A DNA stretch of 64,000 bases from contig JBEKHY010000005.1 of the NCBI GenBank assembly GCA_050012035.1, positions 2,871 through 66,870 on the forward strand, written 5' to 3'. Below, piece after piece: positions 9,797 through 36,003 of the stretch. The translations under genes and the position numbers were made by a program. Every line of letters starts with the position of its first letter. Position 1 is the first letter of the stretch. The stretch is from Verrucomicrobiota bacterium. GTDB lineage: Bacteria; Verrucomicrobiota; Verrucomicrobiia; Limisphaerales; UBA11358. Below the pieces are notes generated by a model. It worked only from the letters and a program-made list of their open reading frames with translations. It had not been told where the DNA came from and searched no databases.

Positions 9797-10207
9797 GTGG
9801 CCACTATGGACTGGCTGACCAACCTGTTGTGGCATGACGGCAAACTGTTGGGCATTGATTGGAGCATATGGAAAGTCATCGGCTGGACGGGCAACGCGGT
9901 TTTCTTCACGCGCTTTTTCGTCCAGTGGTATGCAACGGAAAAAAAGAAGCGCGTCGTTGTGCCGACGGCGTTTTGGTGGTTGAGCCTGACTGGTTCGCTG
10001 CTGCTGCTGATATACTCGTTGCGGCAGCAGGATTCGGTATTTATTTTCGCTTATATCTTCACATGGATTCCCTATACACGGAATTTAATCATCCACTACC
10101 GCCACAAGAACGCGCACACAAATTGCCCCGGCTGCGGGAGGAGTTGTCCGCCGCAGTCGAACTTTTGTCCGAGCTGCGGCGCGAAACTGGCGGCGCCTAC
10201 TTCCTAG
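9797..10207 (+). CDS. LAB_N (lipid-A-disaccharide synthase N-terminal-like) membrane protein fused to a C-terminal zinc ribbon
   Basis: WKVIGWTGNAVFFTRFFVQWYATEKKKRVVVPTAFWWLSLTGSLLLLIYS matches the LAB_N pattern. The C-terminus is CPGCG...CPSCG. The ATG at 9806 is an alternative start. Confidence 0.65.
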   Translation: MATMDWLTNLLWHDGKLLGIDWSIWKVIGWTGNAVFFTRFFVQWYATEKKKRVVVPTAFWWLSLTGSLLLLIYSLRQQDSVFIFAYIFTWIPYTRNLIIHYRHKNAHTNCPGCGRSCPPQSNFCPSCGAKLAAPTS

Positions 10208-12899: not shown

Positions 12900-13436
12900 A
12901 TGATGCAGATACTGAATCGGCAGGTTGAGTTCACAACCCCCTGGTTTGAAATAGTGGCCAAGCGAACGCCGGGTGATTCGGCGCCCTACTATGCGCTGCG
13001 GATGCAGGACTACATAACGGTTGTTGCCCTGACAAACCAAAACGACCTGATTCTCGTGCGGCAATTCCGGCCAGCGGTGGAGCGATACACGCTGGAGTTG
13101 CCCAGTGGACACGTGGAAAAAGGCGAGACGCCGGCGGACGCAGCCCGGCGTGAACTGGCAGAGGAATGCGGATTTGACGCTCCGAAGGTGGAACTGCTGG
13201 GAGCCTTGTTGAGCGACACCGGACGTAACGAGAACCGGCTTTGGTGCTGCTTCGCGCCGGCGGTTTCACCCTTGGGCGCAGATTATGTGCCCGAACCAGG
13301 CGTGGAGCGAATTCTTGTGCCCCGGGCGAAGCTGCCGGAATTGATTGCCAGCGCCGAGTTTGACCATGCCCTCAATCTGGCCGCGCTCATGATGGTTGTA
13401 GTGAAATATGGCCACGAACTTTTAGCCTTGAAGTAA
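12900..13436 (+). CDS. NUDIX hydrolase
   Basis: NUDIX box GHVEKGETPADAARRELAEECG. The start was set at the ATG at 12900 (MMQILNRQVEF). Confidence 0.8.
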   Translation: MMQILNRQVEFTTPWFEIVAKRTPGDSAPYYALRMQDYITVVALTNQNDLILVRQFRPAVERYTLELPSGHVEKGETPADAARRELAEECGFDAPKVELLGALLSDTGRNENRLWCCFAPAVSPLGADYVPEPGVERILVPRAKLPELIASAEFDHALNLAALMMVVVKYGHELLALK

Positions 13437-13465: not shown

Positions 13466-14650
13466 TTGAAATCCAGATATAATGTTGCCGTCGTCGGTGG
13501 AGCTGGCCACGTCGGCGTCCCTCTCTCATTGGTGCTCGCTGACCGCGGGTTGCGCACGTTGATCTACGATATTAACCAAGCTGCCCTAGAGGAGCTTCAG
13601 GCAGGACGCCTGCCCTTCATTGAAGAAGGCGGCAGGGCCTTGCTGCACAAAGCACTCAAGGCGGGGATGCTTGGATTCTCCCAGGCCCCGGCGGACTTGC
13701 GCGGGATTCCGGCTGTTGTTCTCACCATTGGCACGCCGATTGATGAGTTCCATAACCCCAACTTCAGTCTGCTCACCCATGCCGTGGATGCGCTTTTGCC
13801 GCATCTCGCACCTGGCCAGACGATTATTCTCCGCTCGACGGTGGCGCCGGGCGTGACGGATTTTCTCGACCGTTACCTTCGGAAGCGTGGTTCCAAGGTC
13901 GGCCTGGCGTTTTGTCCGGAGCGCGTAGTGCAGGGCAAGGGCGTCACGGAAATCCAAAGCATCCCGCAATTCGTAACGGCAACCTCACCCCGGGCCTTGA
14001 AAGTTGCCCGCGGCTTGTTTTCAAAGATTTCGCCGCTGGTCATTGAGATGACTCCGCGCGAAGCCGAATTCGGAAAACTGATCTGCAATACCTTTCGTTA
14101 CATCAACTTCGCCGCGACCAACCAGCTCTACATGATGTGCGCGCAGGCCGGGATTGATTATCTCGAGTTGCTCAAAAAGATGAAGTGCGGATACCCGCGC
14201 ATGGCTTATATCCCCGGCCCGGGTTTTGCCGCCGGGCCGTGCCTGATGAAGGATACGATGCAATTATTCGCTTTTGGCCGGCACAACTTCCCGCTCGGCC
14301 AGATGGCCATGACGATCAACGAGGGCCTGCCCAATTTCCTGGTCGATCAGTTGCGCCGCAAAACGAAATTGAAAGGGAAAAGGGTGGGCATCCTGGGCAT
14401 GGCGTTCAAAGCCGAGTCCGACGACATCCGGGATTCGCTCTCCTACAAGCTGGGCAAGATTCTGCGATTCGAGGGCGCCGAGGTGATCTACTCCGACGAA
14501 TATGTCAAGGATCCGACGTTCATCACGAAAGAGGGGCTTTGCCGCCAGGCCGAAATAATTATCGTAGGCGTGCCGCACAAGGCGTACCGGACGCTGAAAA
14601 TCCCGAAATCAGTCACGGTCGTCGATCTCTGGGGGATATTTCGTGGCTGA
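13466..14650 (+). CDS. Nucleotide-sugar 6-dehydrogenase (UDP-glucose/GDP-mannose dehydrogenase family)
   Basis: N-terminal Rossmann motif VAVVGGAGHVG, central catalytic region (GFAAGPCLMKD) and a C-terminal UDP-binding-type domain (ILGMAFKAESDDIRDS). Confidence 0.8.
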   Translation: MKSRYNVAVVGGAGHVGVPLSLVLADRGLRTLIYDINQAALEELQAGRLPFIEEGGRALLHKALKAGMLGFSQAPADLRGIPAVVLTIGTPIDEFHNPNFSLLTHAVDALLPHLAPGQTIILRSTVAPGVTDFLDRYLRKRGSKVGLAFCPERVVQGKGVTEIQSIPQFVTATSPRALKVARGLFSKISPLVIEMTPREAEFGKLICNTFRYINFAATNQLYMMCAQAGIDYLELLKKMKCGYPRMAYIPGPGFAAGPCLMKDTMQLFAFGRHNFPLGQMAMTINEGLPNFLVDQLRRKTKLKGKRVGILGMAFKAESDDIRDSLSYKLGKILRFEGAEVIYSDEYVKDPTFITKEGLCRQAEIIIVGVPHKAYRTLKIPKSVTVVDLWGIFRG

Positions 14651-14674
14651 CCTGATCTGGAGCTTGCCGCGAAC

Positions 14675-15682
14675 ATGAAAGCCGCCATCAAAGCAATCAG
14701 CTATTATCTGCCTCCCCGGATTGAAACCAACCTTGAGATCAGCCGGGAATTTCCGGAGTGGTCGGCGGACAAAATCGCGGAGAAGACCGGCATTTTTGAG
14801 CGCCACATCGCTGACGAAGGCGTCTGCGCCTCAGACATGGGCGCTGAGAGCGCTAAACTGCTTTTCACAGAACACGGGATCGATCCCCACGACGTTGATT
14901 TTATCCTCTTTTGCACGCAAAGCCCGGATTATTTCCTCCCCACCACGGCGTGCCTTTTGCAGGATCGTTTGGGTATTCCTCAGACTGCGGGGGCCTTGGA
15001 TTTCAACCTGGGCTGTTCGGGCTATGTGTACGGCCTCGCATTGGCTGCGGGTTTGGTGGAAACCCGTCAGGCGCGGAGTGTGCTGCTCATCACCGCCGAA
15101 ACGTACAGCAAATTCATCTCGCCGGAAGACAAGACGGTGCGCTCACTTTTTGGCGACGCCGCCGCGGCCACGCTGGTGGCGGCGTCCGAGACGGGTTCGG
15201 TCGGTCCGTTTGTTTTCGGAACCGATGGACGCGGCGGCGAACACCTCATCGTCAAGACCGGTGGCCTGCGCCATCGCCAGGCAGCCGCAGGAAAAGCCGC
15301 GGTGGTGGACGAATTCGGCAATGTCCGCCGTGATAACTGTCTTTACATGAATGGCCCGGAGATACTTGTCTTCACCTTGCGCATCGTGCCCCAAGTGGTT
15401 GCCTCCCTGCGTCAAAAAAGCGGGCTGACGGAAGATCAGGTTGACCATTACATTTTTCACCAGGCAAACAAATACATGCTTGATCTGCTCCGCAAAAAAC
15501 TGAAGATTCCGCCTGAGAAATTCTGCGAGCATCTCGCGGGTTGCGGCAATACGGTCTCTTCAACCATCCCGATCGCCCTTTACCACTCGCTCAAGGCGGG
15601 CAGGATTCGCGAGTCCAACCGGGTCATGCTGGTAGGTTTTGGAGTTGGGTTGTCGTGGGCCGGGTGTATGATTCAATTGTAA
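14675..15682 (+). CDS. 3-oxoacyl-ACP synthase III (FabH-like KAS III)
   Basis: Cys-His-Asn triad contexts: LGCSGYVYGL, IFHQANKYM, GNTVSSTIP. Confidence 0.85.
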   Translation: MKAAIKAISYYLPPRIETNLEISREFPEWSADKIAEKTGIFERHIADEGVCASDMGAESAKLLFTEHGIDPHDVDFILFCTQSPDYFLPTTACLLQDRLGIPQTAGALDFNLGCSGYVYGLALAAGLVETRQARSVLLITAETYSKFISPEDKTVRSLFGDAAAATLVAASETGSVGPFVFGTDGRGGEHLIVKTGGLRHRQAAAGKAAVVDEFGNVRRDNCLYMNGPEILVFTLRIVPQVVASLRQKSGLTEDQVDHYIFHQANKYMLDLLRKKLKIPPEKFCEHLAGCGNTVSSTIPIALYHSLKAGRIRESNRVMLVGFGVGLSWAGCMIQL

Positions 15683-15707
15683 ACGTGAACCGTAAAATTG
15701 AAACAAC

Positions 15708-15941
15708 ATGAACATTGATGATTTTGTGCGGCATTTTGAGGGCGCGGTGGACGATGTCGCGGCAGGCTCGCTTAACCCGCAAACAAGGTTTCGAGACCTC
15801 TCACAGTGGAGTTCGCTGGTCGCGCTCAACATCATTGCCATGGTGGATACCGAGTATGGCGTTGAACTGTCGGTGGAAGAACTCAGGAAGTGTCAAAGCA
15901 TTGAGGAGCTTTTCCAACTCTTGTCTGGGAAGAAGAAATAG
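15708..15941 (+). CDS. Acyl carrier protein (dedicated, polysaccharide-locus type)
   Basis: 77 aa. Helical carrier-protein pattern with a candidate phosphopantetheine serine in DLSQWSSLVALNIIAMVD. It sits between KAS III and a ketoreductase-type SDR. Confidence 0.6.
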   Translation: MNIDDFVRHFEGAVDDVAAGSLNPQTRFRDLSQWSSLVALNIIAMVDTEYGVELSVEELRKCQSIEELFQLLSGKKK

Positions 15942-15987
15942 TCTTCCTCGCGAGAGATAAACGCGCGCCATTCATCGCCGAAAAAAG

Positions 15988-16734
15988 ATGAACAATCCGT
16001 TCGAGTTGACGGGCAGGACAATTCTGGTCACCGGTGCATCTTCCGGAATCGGACGGCAATGTTGTCTTGCAATTGCGGCGAACGGCGGAACGGTGGTGGC
16101 CACCGGGCGCAGCCGCGAACGCCTGAGCGAGACGTTACGATCACTGCCGGGTGATTCCCATGCGGGATTCCCGGCGGATTTGACCCGGGCAGAAGAGCTC
16201 GACAAATTGGTGCAGCAGATGCCGCAACTTGATGGCATCGTCCACGCTGCCGGTGTACAAAAGTATCTCCCCCTCAAGTTCATTTCTGGCCAGGCCCTGC
16301 GGGAAATGCTGCTGGTGAATTATGAAGCTCCAGTGCTTCTGACACAAAGTCTGCTTAAGCACAAGGCGCTCCGTTCCGGCGCTTCCATTCTTTTTATCTC
16401 CTCACTGGCGGGCTTGACGGCGGTGTGCGGCAACGCGATTTACAGCGGAACGAAAGCGGCCCTGATGGCCTCCGCCAGAGTCATGGCGCTGGAACTTGCC
16501 CCCCAGCGCATGCGGGTAAATTGCATAGCCCCAGGTATGGTCAGAACGCCCATGGCGCAGCAAATGGCTACCGTGGTTTCGGCGGAGCAAATGGCCGCAC
16601 ACGAGAAACTCTATCCCTTGGGCTTCGGACGGCCCGAAGACGTGGCCAACGTCGGGGTGTTTCTCCTTTCAGACGCCAGTCGGTGGATTACCGGGCAGAC
16701 GCTGATAATCGACGGCGGATTCAGTTGCCAATGA
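15988..16734 (+). CDS. Short-chain dehydrogenase/reductase (FabG-like ketoacyl reductase)
   Basis: TGASSGIGRQ cofactor motif and YSGTKAAL catalytic YxxxK. Confidence 0.8.
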   Translation: MNNPFELTGRTILVTGASSGIGRQCCLAIAANGGTVVATGRSRERLSETLRSLPGDSHAGFPADLTRAEELDKLVQQMPQLDGIVHAAGVQKYLPLKFISGQALREMLLVNYEAPVLLTQSLLKHKALRSGASILFISSLAGLTAVCGNAIYSGTKAALMASARVMALELAPQRMRVNCIAPGMVRTPMAQQMATVVSAEQMAAHEKLYPLGFGRPEDVANVGVFLLSDASRWITGQTLIIDGGFSCQ

Positions 16735-16836
16735 GTAATTGTTGCAACAAACCTATGGAATGTAGCGGCCGGATCACGCTCATGCCTGATGAGCGCAGTC
16801 CAATGGGGTTGAGTGCGGCCTGCCGCAAATTGGTTT

Positions 16837-17397
16837 ATGACGGAGAACCTTTTTTTTGAACTGAAGGACCTGGCCTACCTTGGCCGGAATGCCCGTGTCG
16901 GCCAGTGCGTGCGCGTCCGGCGTCCGGAGTTGGTGCGAATCGGAGCATTCACGATCATTGACGACTTCACCTACATTTCCGGCGGCTTTGAGATTGGCCG
17001 GTTTGGCCACATTGCGCCTAATGTGAGTCTAGTGGGCGCCCGCGGAACGATCCGGGCAGGTGATTTTGTCGGGGTCGCTGCCGGAAGTTGCGTTTATGCT
17101 TCAAGTTCCGACTACAGCGAAGTCTCGCTGGACCTGCCTGGCGTGCCACCGGAATTTCAATTTGGTGGCACGACCGAGGACGTGGTGCTGGGAGACCATG
17201 TGCTGCTGGGCAGCCATACCGTAGTGCTGCCCGGCGTCGTGCTGCCGGAAGGAGTCGCAACGGCTGCCCACACTGTGCTCAGAAAACGGCAATACCAACC
17301 GTGGACGCTGTACGGCGGTTTGGACGGCAAACCGCTAGTGCGACGCGCTCATGGTCGTCTTGATGAAACCGTGGCGCGCCTGAAAGCATTCAAATGA
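16837..17397 (+). CDS. Left-handed beta-helix (hexapeptide) acyltransferase
   Basis: Repeated hexapeptide-like turns (IGAFTIIDDFTYISGG, VGVAAGSCVYA, VVLGDHVLLGSHTVVLPGVVLPEGV). The start is ATG 16837 or 16813. Confidence 0.7.
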   Translation: MTENLFFELKDLAYLGRNARVGQCVRVRRPELVRIGAFTIIDDFTYISGGFEIGRFGHIAPNVSLVGARGTIRAGDFVGVAAGSCVYASSSDYSEVSLDLPGVPPEFQFGGTTEDVVLGDHVLLGSHTVVLPGVVLPEGVATAAHTVLRKRQYQPWTLYGGLDGKPLVRRAHGRLDETVARLKAFK

Positions 17398-17424
17398 AAA
17401 AGGCATTCTGATTTCGAGACCACC

Positions 17425-18522
17425 ATGACATTTAACTGGACTACCATTTCCGATCAGGCCATCGTCAATGCTGCCGCCACTTTGCGTTCCGGTTTCATCA
17501 GCGAGGGCAAGCAAGTCAGGCGTTTCGAACAGGAACTGACGGCGCGGCTTGGTTTGATCCGGCCGGTCACGCTCAACAGCGGAACCACCGCGTTGCATCT
17601 GGCGCTCGTGCTCGCGGGGGTGAAAGCGGGAGACGAAGTCATCATCCCGCCACAAACGTTTATCGCCACCGGCATGGCGGTGTTGATGGCGGGGGCTACA
17701 CCGGTCTTCGCGGACATCCGATACGAAACCGGGAACATTGCTCCGGATGCGATTCTCAAAAAAATCACGAAGAAGACGAAGGCAATTATTCCGGTGCATT
17801 GGGCCGGTTATCCGTGCGATTTGGACGAAATCAATGGAATCGCCGCTGCGCATGATCTCCCGGTGGTCGAAGACGCGGCCCACGCGCTGGGCGCAATGTA
17901 TCGCGGCAAACCGGTAGGCGCCATCTCCCGTTTCACCTGTTTTTCCTTTCAAGCCATCAAACATCTTACCACCGGTGATGGCGGCGCGCTCTGTTGCCTG
18001 CGCGCGGAAGATGAAAGCCAGGCACGCATCCGGCGCTGGTTCTGTATTGATCGGGACAACAGCCCTCAGTCTTTCCTGGGCGAGCGTTCTTACGATGCTG
18101 CCGCTGTCGGTTACAAGTATCATCTCAACGACCTCGAGGCTGCTATCGGGTTGGGCAATCTCGAAGTCCTTCCTCAGGTGCTGGCACGATTGCGGGAAGT
18201 TTCGAGCCGTTATCGCCGGGAATTAGCGACCGTGTCCGGCATCACACTTCTGGAAAACAGAAATGACCGGGTGTCAGCCTGCTGGTTGTTCACGCTGTTG
18301 GCGCAACGGCGGGATGATTTTCTTCGCGCGCTCCAAAGCCGCGGCGTGCCGGCCTCCGTCTTCCATCAGCGCATCGATCGCAACTCGGTTTTCGGCGGTG
18401 TTCGCAAGGACTTGCCGAACATGGACCGTTTCAATAATGATCAAGCGTCTGTCCCGCTGCACGCCGGGTTGACGGATGAAGAAGTGGAAACGGTCATTGC
18501 GGCAGTGACGGCCGGCTGGTAG
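17425..18522 (+). CDS. DegT/DnrJ/EryC1-family sugar aminotransferase (PLP)
   Basis: SFQAIKHLTTGDGGAL (PLP-lysine context) and typical length and N-terminal pattern. Confidence 0.85.
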   Translation: MTFNWTTISDQAIVNAAATLRSGFISEGKQVRRFEQELTARLGLIRPVTLNSGTTALHLALVLAGVKAGDEVIIPPQTFIATGMAVLMAGATPVFADIRYETGNIAPDAILKKITKKTKAIIPVHWAGYPCDLDEINGIAAAHDLPVVEDAAHALGAMYRGKPVGAISRFTCFSFQAIKHLTTGDGGALCCLRAEDESQARIRRWFCIDRDNSPQSFLGERSYDAAAVGYKYHLNDLEAAIGLGNLEVLPQVLARLREVSSRYRRELATVSGITLLENRNDRVSACWLFTLLAQRRDDFLRALQSRGVPASVFHQRIDRNSVFGGVRKDLPNMDRFNNDQASVPLHAGLTDEEVETVIAAVTAGW

Positions 18523-18560
18523 ACTTCCTTTCTCTGATTGGAACCAATTAGAATCATCCA

Positions 18561-19529
18561 ATGAAAATTCTCGTTACTGGAAGCGAAGGTTCGCTGGCAC
18601 AAATGGTCATCCCGCATTTGTTGACCGAAGGACACACGCTCGTCGGTGTGGACAACTTCGCCCGCTACGGGCATATCCAACGCGAGCGGAAATACGAGTT
18701 TCTCACGGGCGATTTGTGCGATACCGCGACCGTGAAACAGCTTTACGCCGCGCACCGGTTCGATTGCCTCTACCATTTCGCCGCCTTGGTCTATGGCGTG
18801 GTTGGCTTTCACAAGAAACCCGCCGATATCATCGCCGACAACAACCTGACCACGATTAACCTGCTGAAGTACGGGCATGACCGTGTGAAACGGGTTGTCT
18901 ATTTGTCCTCCTCGATGGTCTATGAGACCTCCCGCAGTTACCCGCACAAGGAGGAGGAGACAGACACCCTGCCGGTCATGCGAACCGCCTATGGGCTTTC
19001 CAAATACATCGGAGAACGTGTGGTGCAATCCTTTCAGCAGCAGTTCGGGGTTTCTTATGTGATCTGGCGGCCATTCAATATCATCACGCCGTTTGAGAAG
19101 CCGGAAGAGGAAGGGTTCAGCCACGTATTCAGCGACATGATCGAAAAGATTCTCGTTCGGAAGCTTTCGCCGGTGCCGGTGCTCGGCGACGGCGAGCAGA
19201 TCCGTTGCTTCACCAACATTTCCGACGTGGCTGATGTCATTGCCCGGTTCAGTCTCCGGCCGGAAGTGGACAATCAGGCCGTAAACATCGGAAATCCCGA
19301 GCCGGTGACCGTTAAGGAACTGGTGACAAAAATCGTAACGCTTGGCAAAAAATTCGGACTGCTTGGCCCGGATTACCCAATCCATTTTGAATATCAGCAG
19401 GTCTATGCCGATGACGTCAAAAAACGCATTCCCGACGTCAGCAAAATCAAACGGTTGTTCGGCTGGGAGGCGAGAACCCGGGTGGACCAGTCCTTGGAGC
19501 AATGCATCCGTTTCCGGTTCAAGTTGTAA
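18561..19529 (+). CDS. Extended SDR, NAD-dependent nucleotide-sugar epimerase/dehydratase/decarboxylase family
   Basis: MKILVTGSEGSL Rossmann start, SSSMVY serine region, YGLSK catalytic YxxxK. Confidence 0.75.
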   Translation: MKILVTGSEGSLAQMVIPHLLTEGHTLVGVDNFARYGHIQRERKYEFLTGDLCDTATVKQLYAAHRFDCLYHFAALVYGVVGFHKKPADIIADNNLTTINLLKYGHDRVKRVVYLSSSMVYETSRSYPHKEEETDTLPVMRTAYGLSKYIGERVVQSFQQQFGVSYVIWRPFNIITPFEKPEEEGFSHVFSDMIEKILVRKLSPVPVLGDGEQIRCFTNISDVADVIARFSLRPEVDNQAVNIGNPEPVTVKELVTKIVTLGKKFGLLGPDYPIHFEYQQVYADDVKKRIPDVSKIKRLFGWEARTRVDQSLEQCIRFRFKL

Positions 19530-19562
19530 TCGGTCACAGCGGAATACCTGCATCTAATTGCC

Positions 19563-20372
19563 ATGAGCGCCCCTGAATCACCCGTCCTGACCCTTCTCCT
19601 CCCGGTGCGGAACGAGGAGATGAATCTGCGCGTCATGCTCCGCATCATCCGGACGGTATTGGATTATCCTCACGAAGTGCTGGTCATCCACGACACGGTG
19701 GACGACAAAAGTATTGCCATTGTCAAGGAAGCGCAGGCGAACTACCCGGGACTTCGGCTGGTGCACAATCAACTTGGGCAGGGCGTTATCAACGCCATCC
19801 GCGCGGGTGTTGCCGAAGCCCGGAGCGAAATCGCCACGATCCTCTGTGCCGATGACACCGGCCCGGTATTGGTGGTGGACGACATGCTGGCCCTGATGCG
19901 CCAAGGCTGCGATTTTGTCAGCGTCACCCGTTACGCTCACGGCGGGCGGCGCCTGGGAGGCTCGCTCATCGGCGGAATCCTTTCCCGGACAGCCAACTGG
20001 CTTTTTCACCACTTGGTTCGTTCCCCTTTCACGGACGCCACTACCGGCTGTAAGATGTTCCGGCGGGATTTATTTGAAAAATTTCAATTGGAAAGCCGGC
20101 CGATTGGGTGGGCTTTTGCTTTCGAGATGTCGATCAAGGCGCAACTTTTAGGTCTCCGCCTGGGCGAAGTCCCGCTGGTTAGCATTGACCGGCTATTCGG
20201 CGGACAATCCAGTTTTCGCCTGGGATCCTGGCTGGTCGAGTACCTACGGTGGTTTCTGTGGGGATTTCGAAAAAGGTGCTCTTACGGCATCTGGCGGCGT
20301 CCTCCCGTTCTTATCCGAGTGCCGGTTTTCTATCAGTCCAAAACGGCGGTGCAGTCACGCACCAGCGGTTAA
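19563..20372 (+). CDS. Family-2 glycosyltransferase (polyprenyl-phosphate sugar synthase-like)
   Basis: LLLPVRNEE..., a DxD-type region (LCADDTGP) and the FRRDLF motif typical of DPM1/ArnC-like GT2 enzymes. Confidence 0.75.
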   Translation: MSAPESPVLTLLLPVRNEEMNLRVMLRIIRTVLDYPHEVLVIHDTVDDKSIAIVKEAQANYPGLRLVHNQLGQGVINAIRAGVAEARSEIATILCADDTGPVLVVDDMLALMRQGCDFVSVTRYAHGGRRLGGSLIGGILSRTANWLFHHLVRSPFTDATTGCKMFRRDLFEKFQLESRPIGWAFAFEMSIKAQLLGLRLGEVPLVSIDRLFGGQSSFRLGSWLVEYLRWFLWGFRKRCSYGIWRRPPVLIRVPVFYQSKTAVQSRTSG

Positions 20373-20493
20373 GGCAATTCTATGATCAGAATGTCCTCCG
20401 TTTGAATTACCGTCGGTTCGCCGTCCGCTCGGGGCGCCGCGTCAGGGCGGCAACTCGCGCGATTCTTTTTGGTATTATTTCCTCCAAAGGATG

Positions 20494-20517
20494 CCTGATT
20501 CGACTTGGCGAATCAGG
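20494..20517 (+). terminator. Candidate intrinsic terminator between convergent genes
   Basis: CCTGATTCG-ACTTGG-CGAATCAGG (9-bp stem) followed by TATATTATT. The T-tract is weak. Confidence 0.35.
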
Positions 20518-20559
20518 TATATTATTGCCGTAAAAAGCAGTGATTTTCACCTGCGATGG

Positions 20560-22152
20560 TCAGGGGTTGCGCCGGAAGATGGCAACGCAGTATCCGCAGG
20601 CGATATCCTGCTGATTATAATAGGGCAAAAGCCGCGTCACCAGCTTCCTCATTAACGTCGGCTCGGAGGAAGTTCTGGCGACCTGTTTCCAACGGCTGTC
20701 ATTGCAGGTAAATTTTTTGTAAACGTCGCCGGAAGTGGCCGTGTTTAAAACCAGCACATTCACGCTCTGCCGCTCCGTTTCGGTCATGACGCTAAGATAA
20801 CGTGGCGAGTATAATTCTGCCGCCTTCGCCTTGACGGGAAAATAGCCCGGGTAATCACAGAAGACCACATCGGTGGACCGAATTTGTTGTTGGATCATGC
20901 GTTCGAGCTGACCATACTCCCGACGTTGATTTAGAGCCTGACCCAAAACTACTCGCAATGGTAATCCCACCAGCACTGAGCTGGCGAGCAACAGGAGCAC
21001 CAAAGTTTTTCGGAAACGTCCCAGTAAATCCCATGCCTGCGAGAGAACCGCAAAAACGACGATCATCAAAATTAAATAACTCATCCAATGATACTCTATC
21101 GGGTAGTGTATTAGTATCTCAAAGACGGCACCGATGGCAAAACCGCCCAAGAACCCGAGCAACACAAGGGACCTCAACTGCTTATCCGACCAGGTGCGAT
21201 GGCCGCCCGCCATAATTGCCAGCGCGGCGAAGGCCGGCAAAATGCCGAAATCGGCCAATTGATCATGGAAAATTGTCCGCACCCTCTGGAGCAGTTTAAA
21301 AATCAATGTCGGCTCGCCTTGGCTGCCAGCCAGTTCCTCGGTCTGGTGAAAAATCCGTGTTAGCCTGATATTTTCCAGCACACCGGCCAAGTGATGAGCG
21401 TAGTAAAAGGAAAAAAGCGCCAAACCACCAGAGACAATGCCGGCCATGAGAACCGCGAGCGGGACCAGGGCCTTTTTCCCCTCCAGAAGAAAGACCAACA
21501 GGCAAAGAAGTCCCAAATACGGAACCAGTTGCAGGCCGGCTGCAGGTGAGAGAAAGCCCGCTAAAAATAAGCAGGTGTATTTTGCATCGTGAGATTTCCA
21601 AGACCACGCCAGGAGGGCACTGGTACAGATCAACATGCCCAGACAATCAGGCCGCGCGGTTCGATAGACGAAGCACAACGGAAAACTTAAAAAGGCGGTG
21701 ACCACCATCCCGACCCGGGCAGGGGCCGACCGGATCCAGTTCTGCCGCTTCACTCCCAGCCAGAAAACGAACAGAGCCAAGGATGCCAAGGTGTAATTGA
21801 AAGCCCTGATCTGAACCAACCCCTGGCCAAAGGACTTGATCCAAGGGATCAGGGCGAATGCATAAAGCGGAACATTACAATTCCAGGTGAGTTCTTTGCT
21901 CTGCCACCACGCGGTGGAGGTAAAACCCTTTCCCTGGACAAAGTTTATTGCGGGATCAACAAACATCACCTCATCGCCCCAGCTCGTAGGATAAAGCTTG
22001 GCGGAGCACAAGTTGAACCCAAGAAGTAAAAGGGCGAAAGCGGCGACCACCATCGTTTCATTGGCCTCCAGCCAGACCACACATCTTTGCAGGAATTGAT
22101 CAACCTCGTGTCTCATTGAGACAACCTGTTTGTTCAGGTCAGGAATATCCAT
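20560..22152 (-). CDS. GT-C-fold glycosyltransferase (ArnT/PMT-like)
   Basis: 530 aa and polytopic. The first loop reads YPTSWGDEVMFVDPAINFVQGKG (acidic DE motif as in ArnT/PMT). G+C is lower than in neighbouring genes by eye. Confidence 0.6.
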   Translation of the reverse strand: MDIPDLNKQVVSMRHEVDQFLQRCVVWLEANETMVVAAFALLLLGFNLCSAKLYPTSWGDEVMFVDPAINFVQGKGFTSTAWWQSKELTWNCNVPLYAFALIPWIKSFGQGLVQIRAFNYTLASLALFVFWLGVKRQNWIRSAPARVGMVVTAFLSFPLCFVYRTARPDCLGMLICTSALLAWSWKSHDAKYTCLFLAGFLSPAAGLQLVPYLGLLCLLVFLLEGKKALVPLAVLMAGIVSGGLALFSFYYAHHLAGVLENIRLTRIFHQTEELAGSQGEPTLIFKLLQRVRTIFHDQLADFGILPAFAALAIMAGGHRTWSDKQLRSLVLLGFLGGFAIGAVFEILIHYPIEYHWMSYLILMIVVFAVLSQAWDLLGRFRKTLVLLLLASSVLVGLPLRVVLGQALNQRREYGQLERMIQQQIRSTDVVFCDYPGYFPVKAKAAELYSPRYLSVMTETERQSVNVLVLNTATSGDVYKKFTCNDSRWKQVARTSSEPTLMRKLVTRLLPYYNQQDIACGYCVAIFRRNP

Positions 22153-22303
22153 GCCATCTATCTCCCTATAAATTAGTAGGGGAACAAGAGACTACTCCAA
22201 AAGCATTCCGGCGGCAAATAATTCCAACGTGTGGGTGTGGATTCTGGACTCACACGGCCGCGGGCCATTTTTGCTGGTCAGCGAATTTCAAATCCCTCCG
22301 CAT

Positions 22304-22768
22304 CAATCCCTGAAATTCAGAAACTGCACGAAGGCGGGGAATTCTTTTACGCGCACCGCCGCGATGACGGTTTGAAGTTCGTCCCGGCTCTTGCCAGTGA
22401 CGCGGATGGCGTCGCCTTGAATTTACCGTCGCGGATGATGCCGGTGATGTGCTTCACCGCGGTTGTTTCCATGCCCTGCTTGATTTTGATGACCTGCCGC
22501 GCGTGGCCGAGCGGGGAGACGTCCGGCCCGGCCTTTTCCAAGTTCCTGAAGCTGATGTTGCGCTTGGCAAGCCGGCCCACGACGATTTCCGCGCGCGCCT
22601 CGATTTTGAACTGGTCCTCGGCGGCGAGCTTGATTTCGTTTTTTCGAGGAAGATGTCCGCCTTGCTGCGTTCGAAGCCGAAGCGGTTGGCCAGTTCCTGG
22701 TTGGCTTGGTTGACGGCGTTCTCGATTTCCATCGGGTTGACCTGCGAAACAATGTCGAATGAAGGCAT
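22304..22768 (-). pseudogene. yajQ: yajQ (UPF0234 nucleotide-binding protein) disrupted by two frameshifts
   Basis: The protein is spread over three frames. Frame 1: MPSFDIVSQVNPMEIENAVNQANQELANRFGFERSKADIFLEK. Frame 2: [76 protein letters not shown]. Frame 3: [37 protein letters not shown]-stop. The shifts lie at the T6 run 22639-22644 and near 22416. Confidence 0.8.
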
Positions 22769-22865
22769 CGCCACAGCGAAAAATGGCCACCGGGAAAGAA
22801 AAGGCAAAAGCCACAACCAATTTGGTTGATTCCAAAACCGGCGTGGCATAGAACTCGCCAGCAAA

Positions 22866-24770
22866 ATGCCGACTGTTGTGCTCCTCTGGGTCTGGTTCTG
22901 CGCGTATCTCAATTGCGCAGGCTGGGCGCTTTCCGCGATTCATCAATTGAACGCCGGCGGCTACGCAGTTGTATTGCTGCTCGGTTTTGCCACCTTGATT
23001 TTCTGGAGACGAAGAACGTCCGCGCAAATTTTACCGCGGGTGCGCTGGCAAAAAATCCGCCGCCGGTTCTGTCGCCCGTTTCCGCTGGCGTTTTTGGTCC
23101 TGGCGGCGATGGCTTTGCTCGGTGGTGTTTTGCATGCGCCGAGCAATTACGACGCGCTGGCCTATCGCATTCCGCGCGTGCTGCACTGGCTGGCGGCGGG
23201 GCAATGGCATTGGATCCACACGATTTTCCCGCGCGTGAATCAGCGCGCCTGCGGCATCGAGTGGGTCTCCGCGCCGTTCATTGCCCTGTCGAAAACCGAC
23301 CGGCTGCTGTTCCTCATCAATGTCGTTTCTTTTCTGCTGCTGCCGGGACTGGTGTTCAGCGTTTTTACGCGTCTGGGCGTGCGCCGGCACGCGGCGGGGT
23401 TCTGGATGTGGATTGTGCCAACAGGTTATTGTTTTTTGTTACAGGCTGGCAGCATCGGCAATGATTTGTTTGGTGCACCATTCGCTCTGGCGGCGGTGGA
23501 TTTCGCACTGCGCGCGAAAAATTCCAGGTCCGCGCGCGATTTTTTTGCCTCTTTGCTGGCAGCGGCCTTGATGACCGGCGCCAAGACGAGCAACCTGCCG
23601 CTGCTGTTGCCGTGGGCCATCGCGATTTTGCCGGCACGCGGATTGATAAAACGCCGAATATTGCAGACGATGGCAGTTTGCGTTGTTGCGGTTCTCGCCT
23701 CATTTTTGCCGACCGCCATTCTCAACGCGCATTTTTGCGGGGATTGGACGGGTTGGAAAGCCGAAGGGACGCCACAACGAAACGCTCCGCTTTTGCGTGT
23801 GCCGGCAAATGCCGTGCTCATTACGATCCAAAATCTGACACCGCCGGCTTTCCCGTTCGCCAACACGTGGAACCGCTATACTCAACAAATCATGCCCGCC
23901 GGTTTGAGCCAGCGTTCGCACGAAGCGGTGGTGGAACCGAAGGCCGTTGAATTTCACACCGAAGAACTGCAAATAGAAGACAGCGCCGGATTGGGTTTCG
24001 GTGTCACAGGCCTGATTTTTATCAGCATGGTATTCGTAGCGATACATTGCAGCGGTCCGTTTTTGGGGTTGCAATTCGCCTCCGCCAAAGCCGTCTGGTG
24101 TACCGGCGTCCGACTTGCGCCGTGGATTTCGCTGTTGGCCCTGTTGAGCCAGTCGGAAGTCTATCCCCTCGGGCGCATCCTCGCGCCCTATTACGCGCTG
24201 CTGCTCCCGCTTCTCCTCGCCGGCCCCGCGCCGGAACAACCGGTCAAAAAAATTTGGTGGCGCGCGGCAGCCTTCACCATTTTTGTCATCGCGGCGGCGT
24301 TGCTCATCATTTCTCCGGCGCGACCGCTGTTTCCGGTGGGAATGTTTCTGGAAAAAATCCATAAGGCCGCCGCGCAACATCCGGCGCTGGCGCGTGTGGA
24401 AACCGTTTATTCGGTCTATCGCGAGCGTAACGACGCCTTTGCGCCGGCACGCGCCTCGTTGCCGCCGGACTTGAAGGTTTTGGGTTTGGTGGCCTATGAC
24501 GATCCCGAAACTTCGTTGTGGCGTCCGTTTGGTTCGCGCCGCATCGAGCACGTTTGCCCGCAGGATACCGTAGCGGATTTGAAGGCTCGCGGGGTCGAAT
24601 ACATTCTGGTGAAAACGGGCTGCTACGGGTTTATCTATTCACCTGAAGATTGGGCCAAACGCATGGACGCACAGGTGATCCAAAGAATTCCGCTTCGTCT
24701 CCGCGCCGCTGCCCCTGCGACCGATTGGTATCTGGTCAAAGTGCCGGAAGCGCCCGGCAGCTCCAAATGA
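22866..24770 (+). CDS. Polytopic membrane protein, paralog C (GT-C-like candidate)
   Basis: 634 aa. N-terminus YLNCAGWALSAIHQL..., first loop HAPSNYDALAYRIPRVLHWLAAGQWHWIHT. It aligns along its full length with the next gene. Confidence 0.6.
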   Translation: MPTVVLLWVWFCAYLNCAGWALSAIHQLNAGGYAVVLLLGFATLIFWRRRTSAQILPRVRWQKIRRRFCRPFPLAFLVLAAMALLGGVLHAPSNYDALAYRIPRVLHWLAAGQWHWIHTIFPRVNQRACGIEWVSAPFIALSKTDRLLFLINVVSFLLLPGLVFSVFTRLGVRRHAAGFWMWIVPTGYCFLLQAGSIGNDLFGAPFALAAVDFALRAKNSRSARDFFASLLAAALMTGAKTSNLPLLLPWAIAILPARGLIKRRILQTMAVCVVAVLASFLPTAILNAHFCGDWTGWKAEGTPQRNAPLLRVPANAVLITIQNLTPPAFPFANTWNRYTQQIMPAGLSQRSHEAVVEPKAVEFHTEELQIEDSAGLGFGVTGLIFISMVFVAIHCSGPFLGLQFASAKAVWCTGVRLAPWISLLALLSQSEVYPLGRILAPYYALLLPLLLAGPAPEQPVKKIWWRAAAFTIFVIAAALLIISPARPLFPVGMFLEKIHKAAAQHPALARVETVYSVYRERNDAFAPARASLPPDLKVLGLVAYDDPETSLWRPFGSRRIEHVCPQDTVADLKARGVEYILVKTGCYGFIYSPEDWAKRMDAQVIQRIPLRLRAAAPATDWYLVKVPEAPGSSK

Positions 24771-27937: not shown

Positions 27938-28267
27938 GCCTGTTTTTTGCCGATGATGCGATGTGAACCGGCCTTGAGAATTTCTAAGGATAACGTGGCT
28001 GTCCGAGCGTGGATTCCTGGCTCTGCCTAGTTATGCGGCATGGGTTGGATTTTATCGGCATTTCACAAATTAAATCGTGCCAGCTACCTTGACACCACCG
28101 CCATTAACCGGTGATCTAAAATTCATCCCGATGGCTGTTGTCACGCGCCTCTTCCAAGTGTTCAGATGACGCAAGCCTGCGGGGTGCAAAATTGTCACTG
28201 GAGTTTTTGGCATGCCGCTTGACTCTGAGTCGTGGGTTCCATGATGATAGCGAAAAAATAGTGGGAA

Positions 28268-35985: not shown

Positions 35986-36003
35986 CGTGCGAACAATTCG
36001 AGA

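What the first reader, a model, noticed from the sequence alone, without database searches (positions are those of the whole stretch)
13466..22152. Amino-sugar locus coupling a private KASIII-ACP-ketoreductase module to an Arn/Wbp-like nucleotide-sugar pathway and a GT-C transferase
The gene order is: sugar 6-dehydrogenase, FabH-like KAS III, ACP, FabG-like SDR, LbH acyltransferase, DegT aminotransferase, extended SDR, GT2, then a convergent ArnT/PMT-like GT-C. The sugar part mirrors two known pathways. One is Ugd/ArnA/ArnB/ArnC/ArnT (lipid-linked 4-aminopentose). The other is WbpA/E/D (di-N-acyl uronic acid). The formyl or acetyl donor appears to be replaced by a dedicated ACP system. That system should make a short 3-oxo or 3-hydroxyacyl-ACP, for example 3-hydroxybutanoyl, for N-acylation of the amino sugar. 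Direct acyl-ACP-dependent N-acylation feeding a polyprenyl-phosphate carrier and a periplasmic GT-C step would be an unusual envelope-modification route.
Basis: inference. Interest (0 to 1): 0.6.

Follow-up and report, generated by a model that had tools for sequence, protein, structure and literature searches.

The report
Arn-like amino-sugar operon with private acyl-ACP module
An uncultured peat Verrucomicrobium carries an operon that most likely makes a 4-amino sugar, caps its amine with a short 3-hydroxyacyl group built on its own carrier protein, and passes it through a lipid carrier to a membrane glycosyltransferase; it is a new variant of known pathways, not a new kind of system.

Summary
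All nine genes are at the stated coordinates and in the stated order, and a co-conserved NUDIX gene lies just upstream.

- The hexapeptide-repeat (LbH) enzyme is AntD-like, that is, a 4-amino-sugar N-acyltransferase.
- The aminotransferase is closest to C4 aminotransferases (CalS13, ArnB).
- The small GT2 is closest to polyprenyl-phosphate sugar synthases.
- The 530-aa membrane protein has no Pfam hit, but its confident model matches only GT-C enzymes, including ArnT.

Comparative genomics gives the strongest evidence. A core of dehydrogenase, aminotransferase, a distinctive SDR and the small GT2, often with NUDIX and a GT-C, recurs in about 25 bacterial and archaeal loci. The N-capping slot in that core is swappable: formyltransferase, carbamoyltransferase, GNAT, methyltransferase, a plain LbH, or an LbH with an ACP module. 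The nearest relative (82–94% identical flanking genes) has a plain LbH in place of KASIII-ACP-KR-LbH. LbH genes at least 50% identical to this one almost always sit beside an ACP module.

Two points stay unresolved. The SDR lacks the ArnA/UXS glutamate, so decarboxylation is inferred from context only. The acceptor is unknown.

A KAS-ACP-KR plus LbH scheme was already proposed for Flavobacterium psychrophilum O-antigen. I rate this a new variant of a known kind, of moderate interest.

The parts
12900..13436 (+). NUDIX hydrolase (NudE/ADP-sugar pyrophosphatase-like), co-conserved with the cassette; role unexplained
   Evidence: Pfam NUDIX E 2e-15. NudE model 72 bits, below its cutoff. Gene called at this position on identical contigs. 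Adjacent to the dehydrogenase or the SDR in L007, L008, L015, L089, L095, L096, L098, L099, L111, L116, L117, L119 and L126.
13466..14650 (+). NDP-sugar 6-dehydrogenase (UDP-Glc/GDP-Man dehydrogenase family); substrate not determined
   Evidence: TIGR03026 247 bits, above cutoff; every specific equivalog is far below cutoff. Best PDB matches are Cap5O at 4e-45 and CalS8 (TDP-glucose dehydrogenase) at 7e-36. The TTG start at 13466 keeps the GxGxxG motif.
14675..15682 (+). KASIII-type condensing enzyme of a glycan-locus clade
   Evidence: NF006829 266 bits, above cutoff; the housekeeping fabH model TIGR00747 scores 234, below its 292 cutoff. Cys114/His262/Asn292 triad intact; 29% identical to E. 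coli FabH and 55-61% to homologues in glycan loci.
15708..15941 (+). Dedicated acyl carrier protein
   Evidence: PP-binding 27.9 bits, above cutoff. Invariant Ser36 aligns with the AcpP phosphopantetheine serine. 38-43% identical to ACPs next to KASIII homologues and 17% to AcpP.
15988..16734 (+). FabG-like 3-ketoacyl reductase (classical SDR)
   Evidence: adh_short_C2 E 3e-50 and KR domain. TGASSGIG and YSGTK motifs present. 44-58% identical to the reductases beside KASIII homologues in L012, L092 and L093, and 28% to E. coli FabG.
16837..17397 (+). AntD-like left-handed beta-helix N-acyltransferase for a 4-amino sugar; proposed acyl-ACP user
   Evidence: Best PDB match is 3vbi-3vbp at E 8e-24; 3vbn is AntD (PMC6031040). 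Adjacent to a DegT gene in most of 80 related loci. Clade members at 50% identity or more have an ACP, KAS or ligase module in 6 of 7 loci.
17425..18522 (+). DegT-family PLP aminotransferase, probably C4-specific
   Evidence: PF01041 E 2e-95. PDB matches: 4zwv/4xau 4e-68, CalS13 4e-58, ArnB 1e-52 to 4e-47, perosamine synthase 7e-50. The C3 enzymes WbpE and QdtB are weaker at about 1e-41. 33% identical to E. coli ArnB.
18561..19529 (+). Extended SDR of a distinct, highly conserved clade; inferred NDP-hexuronate C4 oxidase/decarboxylase (ArnA C-terminal analogue)
   Evidence: Clade is 60-94% identical across bacteria and archaea. It lies beside a dehydrogenase, a DegT and a small GT2 wherever the contig is long enough. 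Tyr144/Lys148/Ser118 align with ArnA Tyr463/Lys467/Ser433, but ArnA Glu434 is an invariant Met119 in this clade.
19563..20372 (+). Small GT2 without a TM anchor; inferred polyprenyl-phosphate amino-sugar synthase (ArnC/DPMS/PpgS-like)
   Evidence: PF00535 E 7e-17. The three strongest PDB groups, and most of the eight hits, are polyprenyl-phosphate transferases: P. furiosus DPMS 1.4e-11, GtrB and ArnC. Weak NCBIfam hits to Dol-P hexose transferase, AglJ and PpgS. No predicted TM segment. Conserved next to the SDR in about 25 loci.
20560..22152 (-). GT-C fold membrane glycosyltransferase of a family with no Pfam model
   Evidence: AlphaFold2 pLDDT 94.6. Top 24 Foldseek PDB hits are all GT-C (ALG12 1.7e-7; ArnT 5e-6, TM 0.53-0.56). 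The family holds 753 clusters. Asp60-Glu61 after TM1 is invariant. 4 of 73 members give weak PMT_2 hits. The syntenic position holds a true PMT_2 protein in L007, L008 and L088.

Best explanation
This is an Arn-like, lipid-carrier-dependent envelope glycosylation operon in which a privately made short 3-hydroxyacyl group takes the place of the formyl cap.

Proposed steps:
1. The dehydrogenase oxidises an NDP-hexose (or an N-acetylhexosamine) to the uronic acid. (Family shown; substrate inferred.)
2. The extended SDR oxidises C4, and the resulting beta-keto acid loses CO2, giving an NDP-4-keto-pentose. (Inferred from context only.)
3. The DegT enzyme aminates C4. (Family shown; regiochemistry inferred from its nearest characterised relatives.)
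4. In parallel, the KASIII condenses a short acyl-CoA, most simply acetyl-CoA, with malonyl-ACP on the dedicated ACP, and the reductase gives 3-hydroxybutanoyl-ACP. Chain growth stops there because the locus has no dehydratase, no enoyl reductase and no second KAS. (Inferred.)
5. The AntD-like LbH enzyme transfers this acyl group from the ACP to the 4-amino group. Like formylation in the Arn pathway, this should also pull the transamination forward. (Inferred. Supported by co-variation of the LbH clade with ACP modules.)
6. The small GT2 transfers the N-acyl amino sugar to a polyprenyl phosphate. After flipping, the convergent GT-C enzyme attaches it to a periplasmic acceptor that remains unidentified (lipid A/core, another glycan, or a protein).

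No ArnD-like deacylase is present, so the acyl group probably stays on and the final modification would be neutral rather than cationic.
For: - Gene families and order.
- The LbH is AntD-like (AntD identity confirmed).
- The DegT is nearest to C4 aminotransferases, including those of the aminopentose pathways (CalS13, ArnB). In the AT2433 aminopentose pathway a dehydrogenase, a decarboxylase and an aminotransferase act in sequence (PMC10951976).
- The SDR, DegT and LbH also match PDB entries 8vr2, 8vr3/8vr5 and 8vr6. 8vr2 is described as the Pcryo_0617 oxidoreductase/decarboxylase of Psychrobacter cryohalolentis. The O-antigen of that organism contains 2,3,4-triacetamido-2,3,4-trideoxy-L-arabinose (PMC8040287).
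- SDR-clade members sit with a dehydrogenase, a DegT, a small GT2 and a PMT_2 GT-C. In L088 the set also includes an ArnA-type formyltransferase (164 bits).
- The N-cap slot is swappable.
- The nearest relative, L094, shares the dehydrogenase (92%), DegT (88%), SDR (94%), GT2 (83%) and GT-C (82%). It has a single LbH, 27.5% identical to this one, in place of KASIII-ACP-KR-LbH.
- L007, L008 and L097 keep an LbH 76-81% identical to this one, but with an ACP, an SDR and an adenylating ligase instead of the KASIII. L015, L119 and L130 use FkbH plus an ACP.
- LbH identity predicts module presence: 6 of 7 loci at 50% or more, 2 of 26 at 40-49%, 3 of 47 below 40%.
- The KASIII triad and the ACP serine are intact, and the trio is co-conserved in glycan loci.
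- The GT2 is nearest to DPMS, GtrB and ArnC.
- The 530-aa protein has a GT-C fold.
- Published precedent exists for a KAS-ACP-KR plus LbH route (PMC6519341).
Against: - The SDR clade has Met where ArnA and UXS have the catalytic Glu (E434), and no other decarboxylase signature was found. Fold comparison cannot separate epimerases from ArnA or Pcryo_0617.
- The dehydrogenase is nearer to UDP-ManNAc-type enzymes than to Ugd, so the sugar could carry a 2-acetamido group or a different nucleotide.
- AntD itself uses an acyl-CoA (from memory of Kubiak and Holden 2012). Nothing in the LbH sequence proves that it binds an ACP.
- The AntD residue Asp94 aligns with a Ser in this LbH (read from the alignment).
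- The window holds no FabD, phosphopantetheinyl transferase, flippase or deacylase.
- The GT-C shows no sequence-level similarity to ArnT or to the PMT_2 protein at the same position in L007. It is not adjacent in every related locus (L095 and L098), and its homologues occur in other contexts.
- Every related sequence comes from an uncultured organism, and no glycan chemistry is known for any of them.
Confidence: 0.6

Rival explanations
1. The pathway is the same, but the sugar keeps its carboxylate or is otherwise not a pentose. The SDR would act as a 4-epimerase or as a non-decarboxylating oxidoreductase. The product would then be an N-acyl amino-hexuronic acid or another amino sugar rather than an Ara4N-type pentose.
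For: - The ArnA/UXS Glu is replaced by an invariant Met.
- The best sequence and fold matches are 4-epimerases (TM0509, Rv3634c, UDP-GlcA 4-epimerase) and GDP-fucose synthase.
- The dehydrogenase resembles UDP-ManNAc/GlcNAc-type enzymes.
Against: - DegT enzymes need a keto substrate, and the conserved core holds no other oxidase.
- A 4-keto-hexuronate is a beta-keto acid that decarboxylates readily (general chemistry).
- Every characterised dehydrogenase + SDR + DegT trio that I could name (Arn, CalS8/9/13 and AtmS8/9/13, Pcryo_0617) passes through decarboxylation (otherwise from memory).
- L088 pairs the SDR with an ArnA-type formyltransferase.
Confidence: 0.2
2. The LbH enzyme uses an acyl-CoA (acetyl-CoA or 3-hydroxybutanoyl-CoA), as AntD does. 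The KASIII-ACP-KR trio would supply something else, such as a lipid or a second substituent, or would feed the CoA pool indirectly.
For: - AntD and most characterised sugar N-acyltransferases of this fold use CoA thioesters (from memory).
- The plain LbH of L094 is equally AntD-like (E 1.6e-22).
- No ACP-docking feature was demonstrated.
Against: - The trio lies between the dehydrogenase and the LbH inside the operon, with gaps of 25-103 nt.
- The LbH subclade tracks ACP modules across three different loading chemistries and several phyla.
- Where the module is absent, the LbH is a different subclade.
- No thioesterase or acyl-ACP:CoA transacylase is encoded in the locus.
Confidence: 0.15
3. 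The nucleotide sugar feeds an ordinary cytoplasmic glycan assembly (O-antigen or capsule repeat unit). The small GT2 would be a conventional glycosyltransferase, and the convergent membrane protein an unrelated neighbour.
For: - The small GT2 has no TM anchor, and its matches to ArnC are weak (23.7 bits). E. coli ArnC matches the other GT2, at 26741-27937, better.
- The GT-C is missing next to the cassette in some relatives (L095 and L098).
- KASIII-ACP-KR sets elsewhere sit in Wzx/ABC-type polysaccharide loci.
Against: - The three strongest PDB groups, and most of the eight hits, for the small GT2 are polyprenyl-phosphate transferases (DPMS 1.4e-11, GtrB, ArnC).
- A GT2 of 250-270 aa is invariably part of the core.
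- A GT-C, either PMT_2 or the family found here, flanks the core in the window and in L007, L008, L087, L088, L089, L094, L110, L111 and L128.
- The window locus has no initiating transferase, Wzx, Wzy or ABC exporter.
Confidence: 0.12

Closest known systems
Arn (PmrHFIJKLM) pathway for lipid A 4-amino-4-deoxy-L-arabinose (Ugd, ArnA, ArnB, ArnC, ArnD, ArnT, ArnE/F)
   Same: The enzyme logic and gene neighbourhood match: sugar 6-dehydrogenase, extended SDR, DegT C4 aminotransferase (33% identical to ArnB), an N-capping enzyme, a polyprenyl-phosphate GT2 and a GT-C. A relative of this SDR clade sits in a locus with a true ArnA-type formyltransferase and a PMT_2 GT-C (L088).
   Different: No formyltransferase, ArnD deformylase, ArnE/F flippase or ArnT orthologue is present. 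The SDR is only 22% identical to the ArnA C-terminal domain and lacks Glu434. The cap is an ACP-delivered acyl group that is probably not removed. The GT-C belongs to a different sequence family. The acceptor is unknown.
Flavobacterium psychrophilum O-polysaccharide genes wfpC/wfpE (KAS), wfpD (ACP), wfpF (KR), wfpG (LbH acyltransferase) (PMC6519341)
   Same: A glycan-locus-specific KAS, ACP and ketoreductase are predicted to build a short hydroxyacyl chain. An LbH enzyme then transfers it to the 4-amino group of a nucleotide sugar. L092 and L093 have the analogous two-KAS layout.
   Different: That system has two KAS genes (giving 3,5-dihydroxyhexanoyl), a PglD-type acyltransferase and a 4,6-dehydratase-derived sugar (Qui2NAc4N), and it feeds a Wzy-dependent O-antigen. 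Here there is one KASIII, an AntD-type LbH, a dehydrogenase/SDR-derived sugar and a polyprenyl-phosphate/GT-C route. The sequences were not compared directly because none was available.
AntD of Bacillus cereus/anthracis (anthrose pathway N-acyltransferase; PDB 3VBI-3VBP)
   Same: It is the closest solved structure to the LbH (E 8e-24, residues 16-176). It N-acylates the C4 amine of an NDP-4-amino sugar with a short beta-hydroxyacyl group and is encoded beside a DegT aminotransferase (from memory).
   Different: AntD uses 3-hydroxy-3-methylbutyryl-CoA and a dTDP-4-amino-4,6-dideoxyglucose acceptor (from memory). Here the donor is inferred to be an acyl-ACP. AntD Asp94 aligns with a Ser in this protein.
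Psychrobacter cryohalolentis Pcryo_0617 oxidoreductase/decarboxylase with its partner aminotransferase and N-acetyltransferase (PDB 8VR2, 8VR3/8VR5, 8VR6)
   Same: An extended SDR decarboxylase, a DegT and an LbH N-acetyltransferase make an N-acylated 4-amino-pentose. All three window proteins hit these entries (8.7e-21, 1.8e-38 and 1.8e-4). The organism's O-antigen contains 2,3,4-triacetamido-2,3,4-trideoxy-L-arabinose.
   Different: The matches are not the best ones for any of the three proteins. That pathway uses acetyl-CoA and an ordinary O-antigen assembly (from memory). The paper could not be retrieved, so the catalytic motif of Pcryo_0617 was not compared.
LpxD/LpxA, and NodF-NodE-NodA (general knowledge)
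   Same: LpxD is an LbH enzyme that N-acylates an amino sugar directly from (R)-3-hydroxyacyl-ACP. NodF and NodE are a private ACP and KAS that supply the N-acyl group of a glucosamine oligomer.
   Different: LpxD uses the housekeeping ACP and long chains and matches only weakly (E about 1e-5). NodA is not an LbH enzyme.
Other polyprenyl-phosphate amino-sugar systems: mycobacterial PpgS/Rv3779, Bordetella LgmABC, Francisella FlmF/FlmK (general knowledge)
   Same: A small GT2 loads an (N-acyl) amino sugar onto polyprenyl phosphate, and a GT-C transfers it in the periplasm. PpgS also lacks TM helices. The window GT2 gives a weak hit to the PpgS model (E 4e-8).
   Different: Those systems start from UDP-GlcNAc or UDP-GalNAc and need no dedicated sugar-modifying enzymes or ACP module.

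Membership tests
Arn (Ara4N) pathway | UDP-glucose 6-dehydrogenase (Ugd) | tested here: inconclusive
   The generic NDP-sugar dehydrogenase model is passed (247 bits against 190). The Ugd equivalogs score 39-100 bits against cutoffs of 670-757. The nearest structures are UDP-ManNAc dehydrogenases and CalS8.
Arn (Ara4N) pathway | ArnA C-terminal decarboxylase with Thr/Ser-Ser-Glu, Tyr-x3-Lys and Arg619 | tested here: not met
   Alignment with E. coli ArnA residues 314-660: Tyr, Lys, Ser433 and the Arg619 column are conserved, but Glu434 is Met119, which is invariant in 20 clade members. Identity is 22%. ArnA model: 73 bits against a cutoff of 777.
Arn (Ara4N) pathway | ArnA N-terminal formyltransferase, ArnD deformylase, ArnE/F flippase | tested here: not met
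   tblastn of the E. coli proteins against the whole window gives no hit at E 1e-3.
Arn (Ara4N) pathway | ArnB UDP-4-keto-pentose aminotransferase | tested here: inconclusive
   33% identical to E. coli ArnB. ArnB structures match at 1e-52 to 4e-47. The ArnB equivalog scores 225 bits against a cutoff of 631.
Arn (Ara4N) pathway | ArnT (GT83/PMT_2) lipid A transferase | tested here: not met
   No Pfam PMT_2 hit. hhalign against E. coli ArnT gives probability 0.3%. The similarity is at fold level only: 5f15/5ezm, E about 1e-5, TM 0.53-0.56.
GT-C glycosyltransferase superfamily | Multi-pass GT-C fold | tested here: met
   The model has pLDDT 94.6. The top 24 PDB matches are all GT-C enzymes with probability at least 0.97; unrelated transporters follow at probability 0.21 or lower.
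GT-C glycosyltransferase superfamily | Conserved acidic motif in the first extracytoplasmic loop | tested here: met
   Asp60 is invariant and Glu61 nearly invariant (at least 90%) in the 73-sequence alignment. They follow the first TM helix (residues 32-49 in the model). The periplasmic side is inferred from the positive-inside rule, not tested.
AntD-type LbH sugar N-acyltransferases | Single-domain left-handed beta-helix with significant similarity to AntD, encoded beside a DegT aminotransferase | tested here: met
   E 8e-24 over residues 16-176. The DegT gene starts 28 nt downstream. LbH-DegT adjacency is seen in most of 80 related loci.
AntD-type LbH sugar N-acyltransferases | Acyl-CoA donor; Asp94 near the sugar amine | tested here: inconclusive
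   AntD Asp94 (the residue mutated in 3vbp and 3vbn) aligns with a Ser, and the next Asp is conserved. Donor type cannot be read from the sequence.
KASIII (FabH-type) condensing enzymes | Cys-His-Asn catalytic triad and both KASIII domains | tested here: met
   C114, H262 and N292 are invariant columns aligned to E. coli FabH C112, H244 and N274. PF08545 and PF08541 both hit. NF006829 scores 266 against 249.
Housekeeping FabH | Passes the fabH model and lies with fabD-fabG-acpP-fabF | tested here: not met
   TIGR00747 scores 234 against a cutoff of 292. Identity to E. coli FabH is 27-29%. There is no FabD in the window. The closest homologues all lie in glycan loci.
Acyl carrier proteins | PP-binding domain with the conserved phosphopantetheine serine | tested here: met
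   27.9 bits against a cutoff of 20.8. Ser36 is the only invariant column in the alignment with AcpP and five locus-associated ACPs.
Polyprenyl-phosphate glycosyltransferases (DPMS/GtrB/ArnC/PpgS type GT2) | GT2 catalytic domain most similar to DPMS, GtrB or ArnC | tested here: met
   P. furiosus DPMS 1.4e-11 over residues 8-230; GtrB 8e-5; ArnC about 1e-3.
Polyprenyl-phosphate glycosyltransferases (DPMS/GtrB/ArnC/PpgS type GT2) | C-terminal TM anchor | tested here: not met
   Hydropathy finds no TM segment. This resembles PpgS and human DPM1 (from memory), so it does not exclude the activity.
F. psychrophilum wfp-type acyl module | KAS + ACP + ketoreductase + LbH acyltransferase clustered with a sugar aminotransferase | tested here: met
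   The gene content matches the published description. Sequence relatedness to the wfp genes was not tested.

The most novel reading that the evidence does not exclude
The window may be one member of a broad, apparently undescribed family of Arn-like cassettes in bacteria and archaea. The cassettes are built around a distinct SDR clade that lacks the canonical decarboxylase glutamate. The amine of a lipid-carrier-bound amino sugar is capped by a hypervariable, horizontally swapped module: formyl, carbamoyl, methyl, GNAT-acyl, acetyl, or ACP-delivered acyl groups loaded by KASIII, an adenylating ligase or FkbH. In this organism the result would be an N-(3-hydroxybutanoyl) aminopentose placed on the envelope by a GT-C family with no existing profile.
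Probability: 0.4. Interest if true: 0.6.

Novelty: new variant of a known kind. Interest (0 to 1): 0.45.

Why it matters
If the scheme is right, the Arn logic (amino sugar, polyprenyl phosphate, GT-C) is not limited to cationic lipid A modification in Proteobacteria. It would be a widespread scaffold in Verrucomicrobia, Nitrospirota, Acidobacteria and archaea. The chemistry of the exposed amine would be diversified by swapping one module.

That would supply:
- a set of natural cassette swaps for studying donor specificity of LbH N-acyltransferases (CoA against ACP);
- a new SDR clade in which to test how C4 oxidation and decarboxylation work without the usual glutamate;
- a new GT-C family.

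The practical value is mainly for annotating envelope glycans of uncultured soil and peat bacteria. It does not resolve a long-standing open question.

Tried and rejected
- Exact-protein look-ups of window proteins returned only contigs of the same species (L001-L006). They gave no comparative information beyond gene starts.
- Promoter and terminator scans over 12.5-22.9 kb were not above the shuffled expectation and were not used.
- Sequence-level tests linking the 530-aa protein to known GT-C enzymes all failed: Pfam and NCBIfam, a profile against PDB sequences, and hhalign against E. coli ArnT and the L007 PMT_2 protein. Only the fold comparison was informative.
- hhalign of that family against the neighbouring large membrane proteins (22866-24770 and 28268-29974) was not significant.
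- The fold search with the SDR model could not separate epimerases from decarboxylases.
- I tried to view the catalytic motif of Pcryo_0617 (8vr2). It never ranked in the top five printed alignments, and the paper describing it was not in the library.
- The WbpA/B/E/D reading was rejected. There is no WbpB-type oxidase, and the aminotransferase is nearer to C4 enzymes.
- Recent horizontal insertion of KASIII-ACP-KR-LbH was considered. Base composition shows no anomaly: GC3 is 0.63-0.67 against 0.66-0.71 in the flanks.

Full report
**1. Observation**

The ORF list shows eight tightly packed + strand genes from 13466 to 20372, with gaps of 25-103 nt, and a convergent gene at 20560-22152. Pfam and NCBIfam assign them as follows:
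- NDP-sugar dehydrogenase (TIGR03026, 247 bits);
- KASIII (NF006829, 266 bits, above cutoff; the housekeeping fabH model is below its cutoff);
- a 77-aa PP-binding ACP;
- a classical SDR;
- a hexapeptide-repeat (LbH) protein;
- a DegT aminotransferase;
- an extended SDR;
- a GT2.

The convergent 530-aa protein is multi-pass but matches no profile.

Identical contigs from peat and other metagenomes show the same gene order. They place the LbH start at 16837 and call a 178-aa NUDIX gene at 12900-13436. The closest named relatives are Verrucomicrobiae MAGs.

**2. The individual enzymes**

- **LbH.** Its best solved relatives, by a wide margin, are PDB 3vbi-3vbp (E 8e-24). These are AntD, the N-acyltransferase of the anthrose pathway.
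- **DegT.** It is nearest to 4zwv/4xau (which I recall as AtmS13), CalS13, ArnB and perosamine synthase. All are C4 aminotransferases. The C3 enzymes WbpE and QdtB match less well. AtmS13 acts after a TDP-glucose dehydrogenase and a TDP-glucuronate decarboxylase.
- **Dehydrogenase.** It is nearest to UDP-ManNAc-type dehydrogenases and to CalS8.
- **Small GT2.** It has no TM segment. Most of its eight PDB matches, and the three strongest groups, are polyprenyl-phosphate transferases: P. furiosus DPMS at 1.4e-11, then GtrB and ArnC.
- **KASIII and ACP.** The KASIII keeps the Cys-His-Asn triad and is 29% identical to E. coli FabH. The ACP keeps the phosphopantetheine serine and is 17% identical to AcpP.

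**3. The membrane protein**

A library-wide search found a family of 753 clusters. In an alignment of 73 members, Asp60, Pro95, Arg116 and Arg167 are invariant and Glu61 is nearly invariant (at least 90%). Four members give weak PMT_2 hits.

The AlphaFold2 model is very confident (pLDDT 94.6). Its 24 best PDB matches are all GT-C glycosyltransferases: ALG12, ALG9, ArnT, PglB, STT3, DPY19, AftA/B, PMT and PimE. The next matches are unrelated transporters at low probability.

It is therefore a GT-C enzyme of a family without a profile. It is not an ArnT or PMT_2 orthologue.

**4. Comparative genomics of the LbH**

Scanning one genome per species with an LbH alignment gave 80 loci. The two closest, L007 and L008, have an LbH 76-81% identical to this one. 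Their order is NUDIX, dehydrogenase, a 101-aa carrier protein with a DSL motif, SDR, AMP-binding ligase, LbH, DegT, extended SDR, small GT2, and a convergent PMT_2 GT-C. The cassette is the same as in the window, but the KASIII is replaced by an adenylating enzyme.

Other loci show further variants:
- Bryobacterales loci (L012, L013) have ACP, KR (44%), KASIII (55%) and LbH (51%).
- A Nitrospirae locus (L015) has DegT, LbH, a methyltransferase, a MaoC-SDR fusion, FkbH (TIGR01686, 278 bits) and an ACP, followed by NUDIX, the extended SDR (68%), a dehydrogenase and a GT2.

Among LbH genes at least 50% identical to this one, 6 of 7 loci carry an ACP, KAS or ligase module, and the seventh is cut off 272 nt upstream. 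The figures are 2 of 26 at 40-49% identity and 3 of 47 below 40%.

**5. Comparative genomics of the extended SDR**

This protein belongs to a clade that is 60-94% identical across Verrucomicrobiota, Nitrospirota, Nitrosocaldus and Altiarchaeales. Gene tables and a metagenome scan show a recurring core of dehydrogenase, DegT, SDR and a 250-270-aa GT2. NUDIX and a GT-C are often attached. One slot in the core is variable:
- ArnA-type formyltransferase in L088, which makes a complete Arn-like set;
- NodU-type carbamoyltransferase in L089, L111, L116 and L117;
- a FemX/GNAT-like protein in L087, L110, L112, L114 and L119, accompanied by a methyltransferase in L087 and L110;
- a methyltransferase in L098;
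- a plain LbH in L094, L095, L096, L099 and L100;
- an LbH with an ACP module in the window, L007, L008, L097, L015, L119 and L130; L126 has an LbH and a KASIII but no ACP was detected.

The nearest relative, L094, shares the dehydrogenase (92%), DegT (88%), SDR (94%), GT2 (83%) and the same GT-C (82%). Between the dehydrogenase and the DegT it has one LbH that is 27.5% identical to the window's. That LbH is also AntD-like.

This natural swap is the best available evidence for two points. The 2.7-kb KASIII-ACP-KR-LbH block is one functional unit that determines the N-acyl group. And this LbH subclade works with an ACP-borne donor.

**6.

The closest KASIII homologues (59-61% identical) lie in polysaccharide or LPS loci, not in fatty-acid or polyketide clusters. 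They sit with small ACPs (38-43% identical), ketoreductases (52-58%), DegT genes and acyltransferases. The window has no FabD. The refutation condition is not met.

**7. What remains uncertain**

- **SDR chemistry.** Aligned with the E. coli ArnA decarboxylase domain, the SDR keeps Tyr, Lys, Ser433 and the Arg619 column. It has an invariant Met where ArnA has Glu434, and no Asp-Glu pair of the 4,6-dehydratases. Fold comparison does not discriminate either: epimerases score TM 0.77-0.80, ArnA 0.74-0.76 and the Pcryo_0617 oxidoreductase/decarboxylase 0.72-0.74. Decarboxylation is therefore inferred from context. The conserved core contains no other enzyme that could make the keto group the aminotransferase needs. 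Every characterised dehydrogenase + SDR + DegT trio I know of proceeds through a 4-keto-pentose.
- **Other unknowns.** The nucleotide, the C2 substituent, the KASIII primer and the acceptor are not determined.
- **Fate of the acyl group.** No deacylase is encoded, so the acyl group is probably retained and the modification would be neutral.

**8. Comparison with what is known**

- The sugar-to-lipid-carrier logic is that of the Arn pathway. Membership fails on several defining features: no formyltransferase, ArnD, ArnE/F or ArnT orthologue, and no Glu434.
- The acyl-supply logic was already proposed for F. psychrophilum. There, wfpC/E (KAS), wfpD (ACP), wfpF (KR) and wfpG (LbH) are predicted to make the N-(3,5-dihydroxyhexanoyl) group of Qui2NAc4N.
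- LpxD shows that LbH enzymes can N-acylate from acyl-ACP (general knowledge).
- P. cryohalolentis provides a solved SDR decarboxylase, aminotransferase and N-acetyltransferase set that all three window proteins match.

What is new here is the combination and the evidence for a modular N-cap slot. No single element is new.

**9. Verdict**

I rate it a new variant of a known kind.
- Interest: 0.45.
- Confidence in the overall mechanism: 0.6.
- Approximate confidence in sub-claims: ACP as the direct donor 0.65; GT2 as a polyprenyl-phosphate synthase 0.7; pentose identity 0.55; 3-hydroxybutanoyl as the acyl group 0.5.

Noticed in passing
window 22866-24770 and 24767-26689 (+): Two tandem paralogous genes (61% identical) encode 634- and 640-aa multi-pass membrane proteins with soluble C-terminal parts. 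Neither has a Pfam hit. No significant profile match to the GT-C family of the 530-aa protein was found for the first paralogue; the second was not tested.
   Followed up: partly
window 26741-27937 (+) and 28268-29974 (+): There is a second GT2, of the DPMS/ArnC type, with about four C-terminal TM helices. E. coli ArnC matches this gene, not the small GT2. It is followed by a 568-aa multi-pass membrane protein with no profile hit and low GC (0.50). Together with the paralogues upstream, this suggests a second polyprenyl-phosphate-sugar glycosylation system next to the finding.
   Followed up: partly
window 12900-13436 (+): A NudE/ADP-sugar-pyrophosphatase-like NUDIX gene is co-conserved with the dehydrogenase or the SDR in at least 13 related loci from several phyla. 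No known Arn-type pathway uses such an enzyme, and its role is unexplained. It might clear a nucleotide-sugar intermediate.
   Followed up: partly
window 9797-10207 (+): A small membrane protein is annotated PF07578 (LAB_N, lipid A biosynthesis N-terminal domain) on the identical contig L001. It lies about 3 kb upstream of the operon. I did not test whether it could be a flippase.
   Followed up: no
window 22347-22835 (-): A YajQ-family gene, called on contigs L001 and L004, lies between the GT-C gene and the paralogous membrane-protein genes. The longer + strand ORF at 22231-22713 is probably spurious.
   Followed up: no
L007 (CAYWMD010000013.1): The record is titled 'uncultured Bifidobacteriaceae bacterium', yet the locus is 75-86% identical in protein to Verrucomicrobial loci. 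The bin is probably mislabelled or contaminated.
   Followed up: no
L141 (Ga0137417_1492105), whole contig: DegT, SDR and GT2 each appear as several fragmentary hits, and the whole set is repeated in inverted orientation. This looks like a frameshifted, chimeric or palindromic assembly artefact, so I did not use it as evidence.
   Followed up: no
L092 and L093: The KASIII homologues here are accompanied by a second KASIII (38-40% identical). L092 also has two Rieske oxygenases. This suggests longer or hydroxylated N-acyl chains in those glycan loci.
   Followed up: no
window 28001-30000 and 36001-42000: GC content falls to 0.49-0.53 against a window mean of 0.574. These may be horizontally acquired segments.
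   Followed up: no
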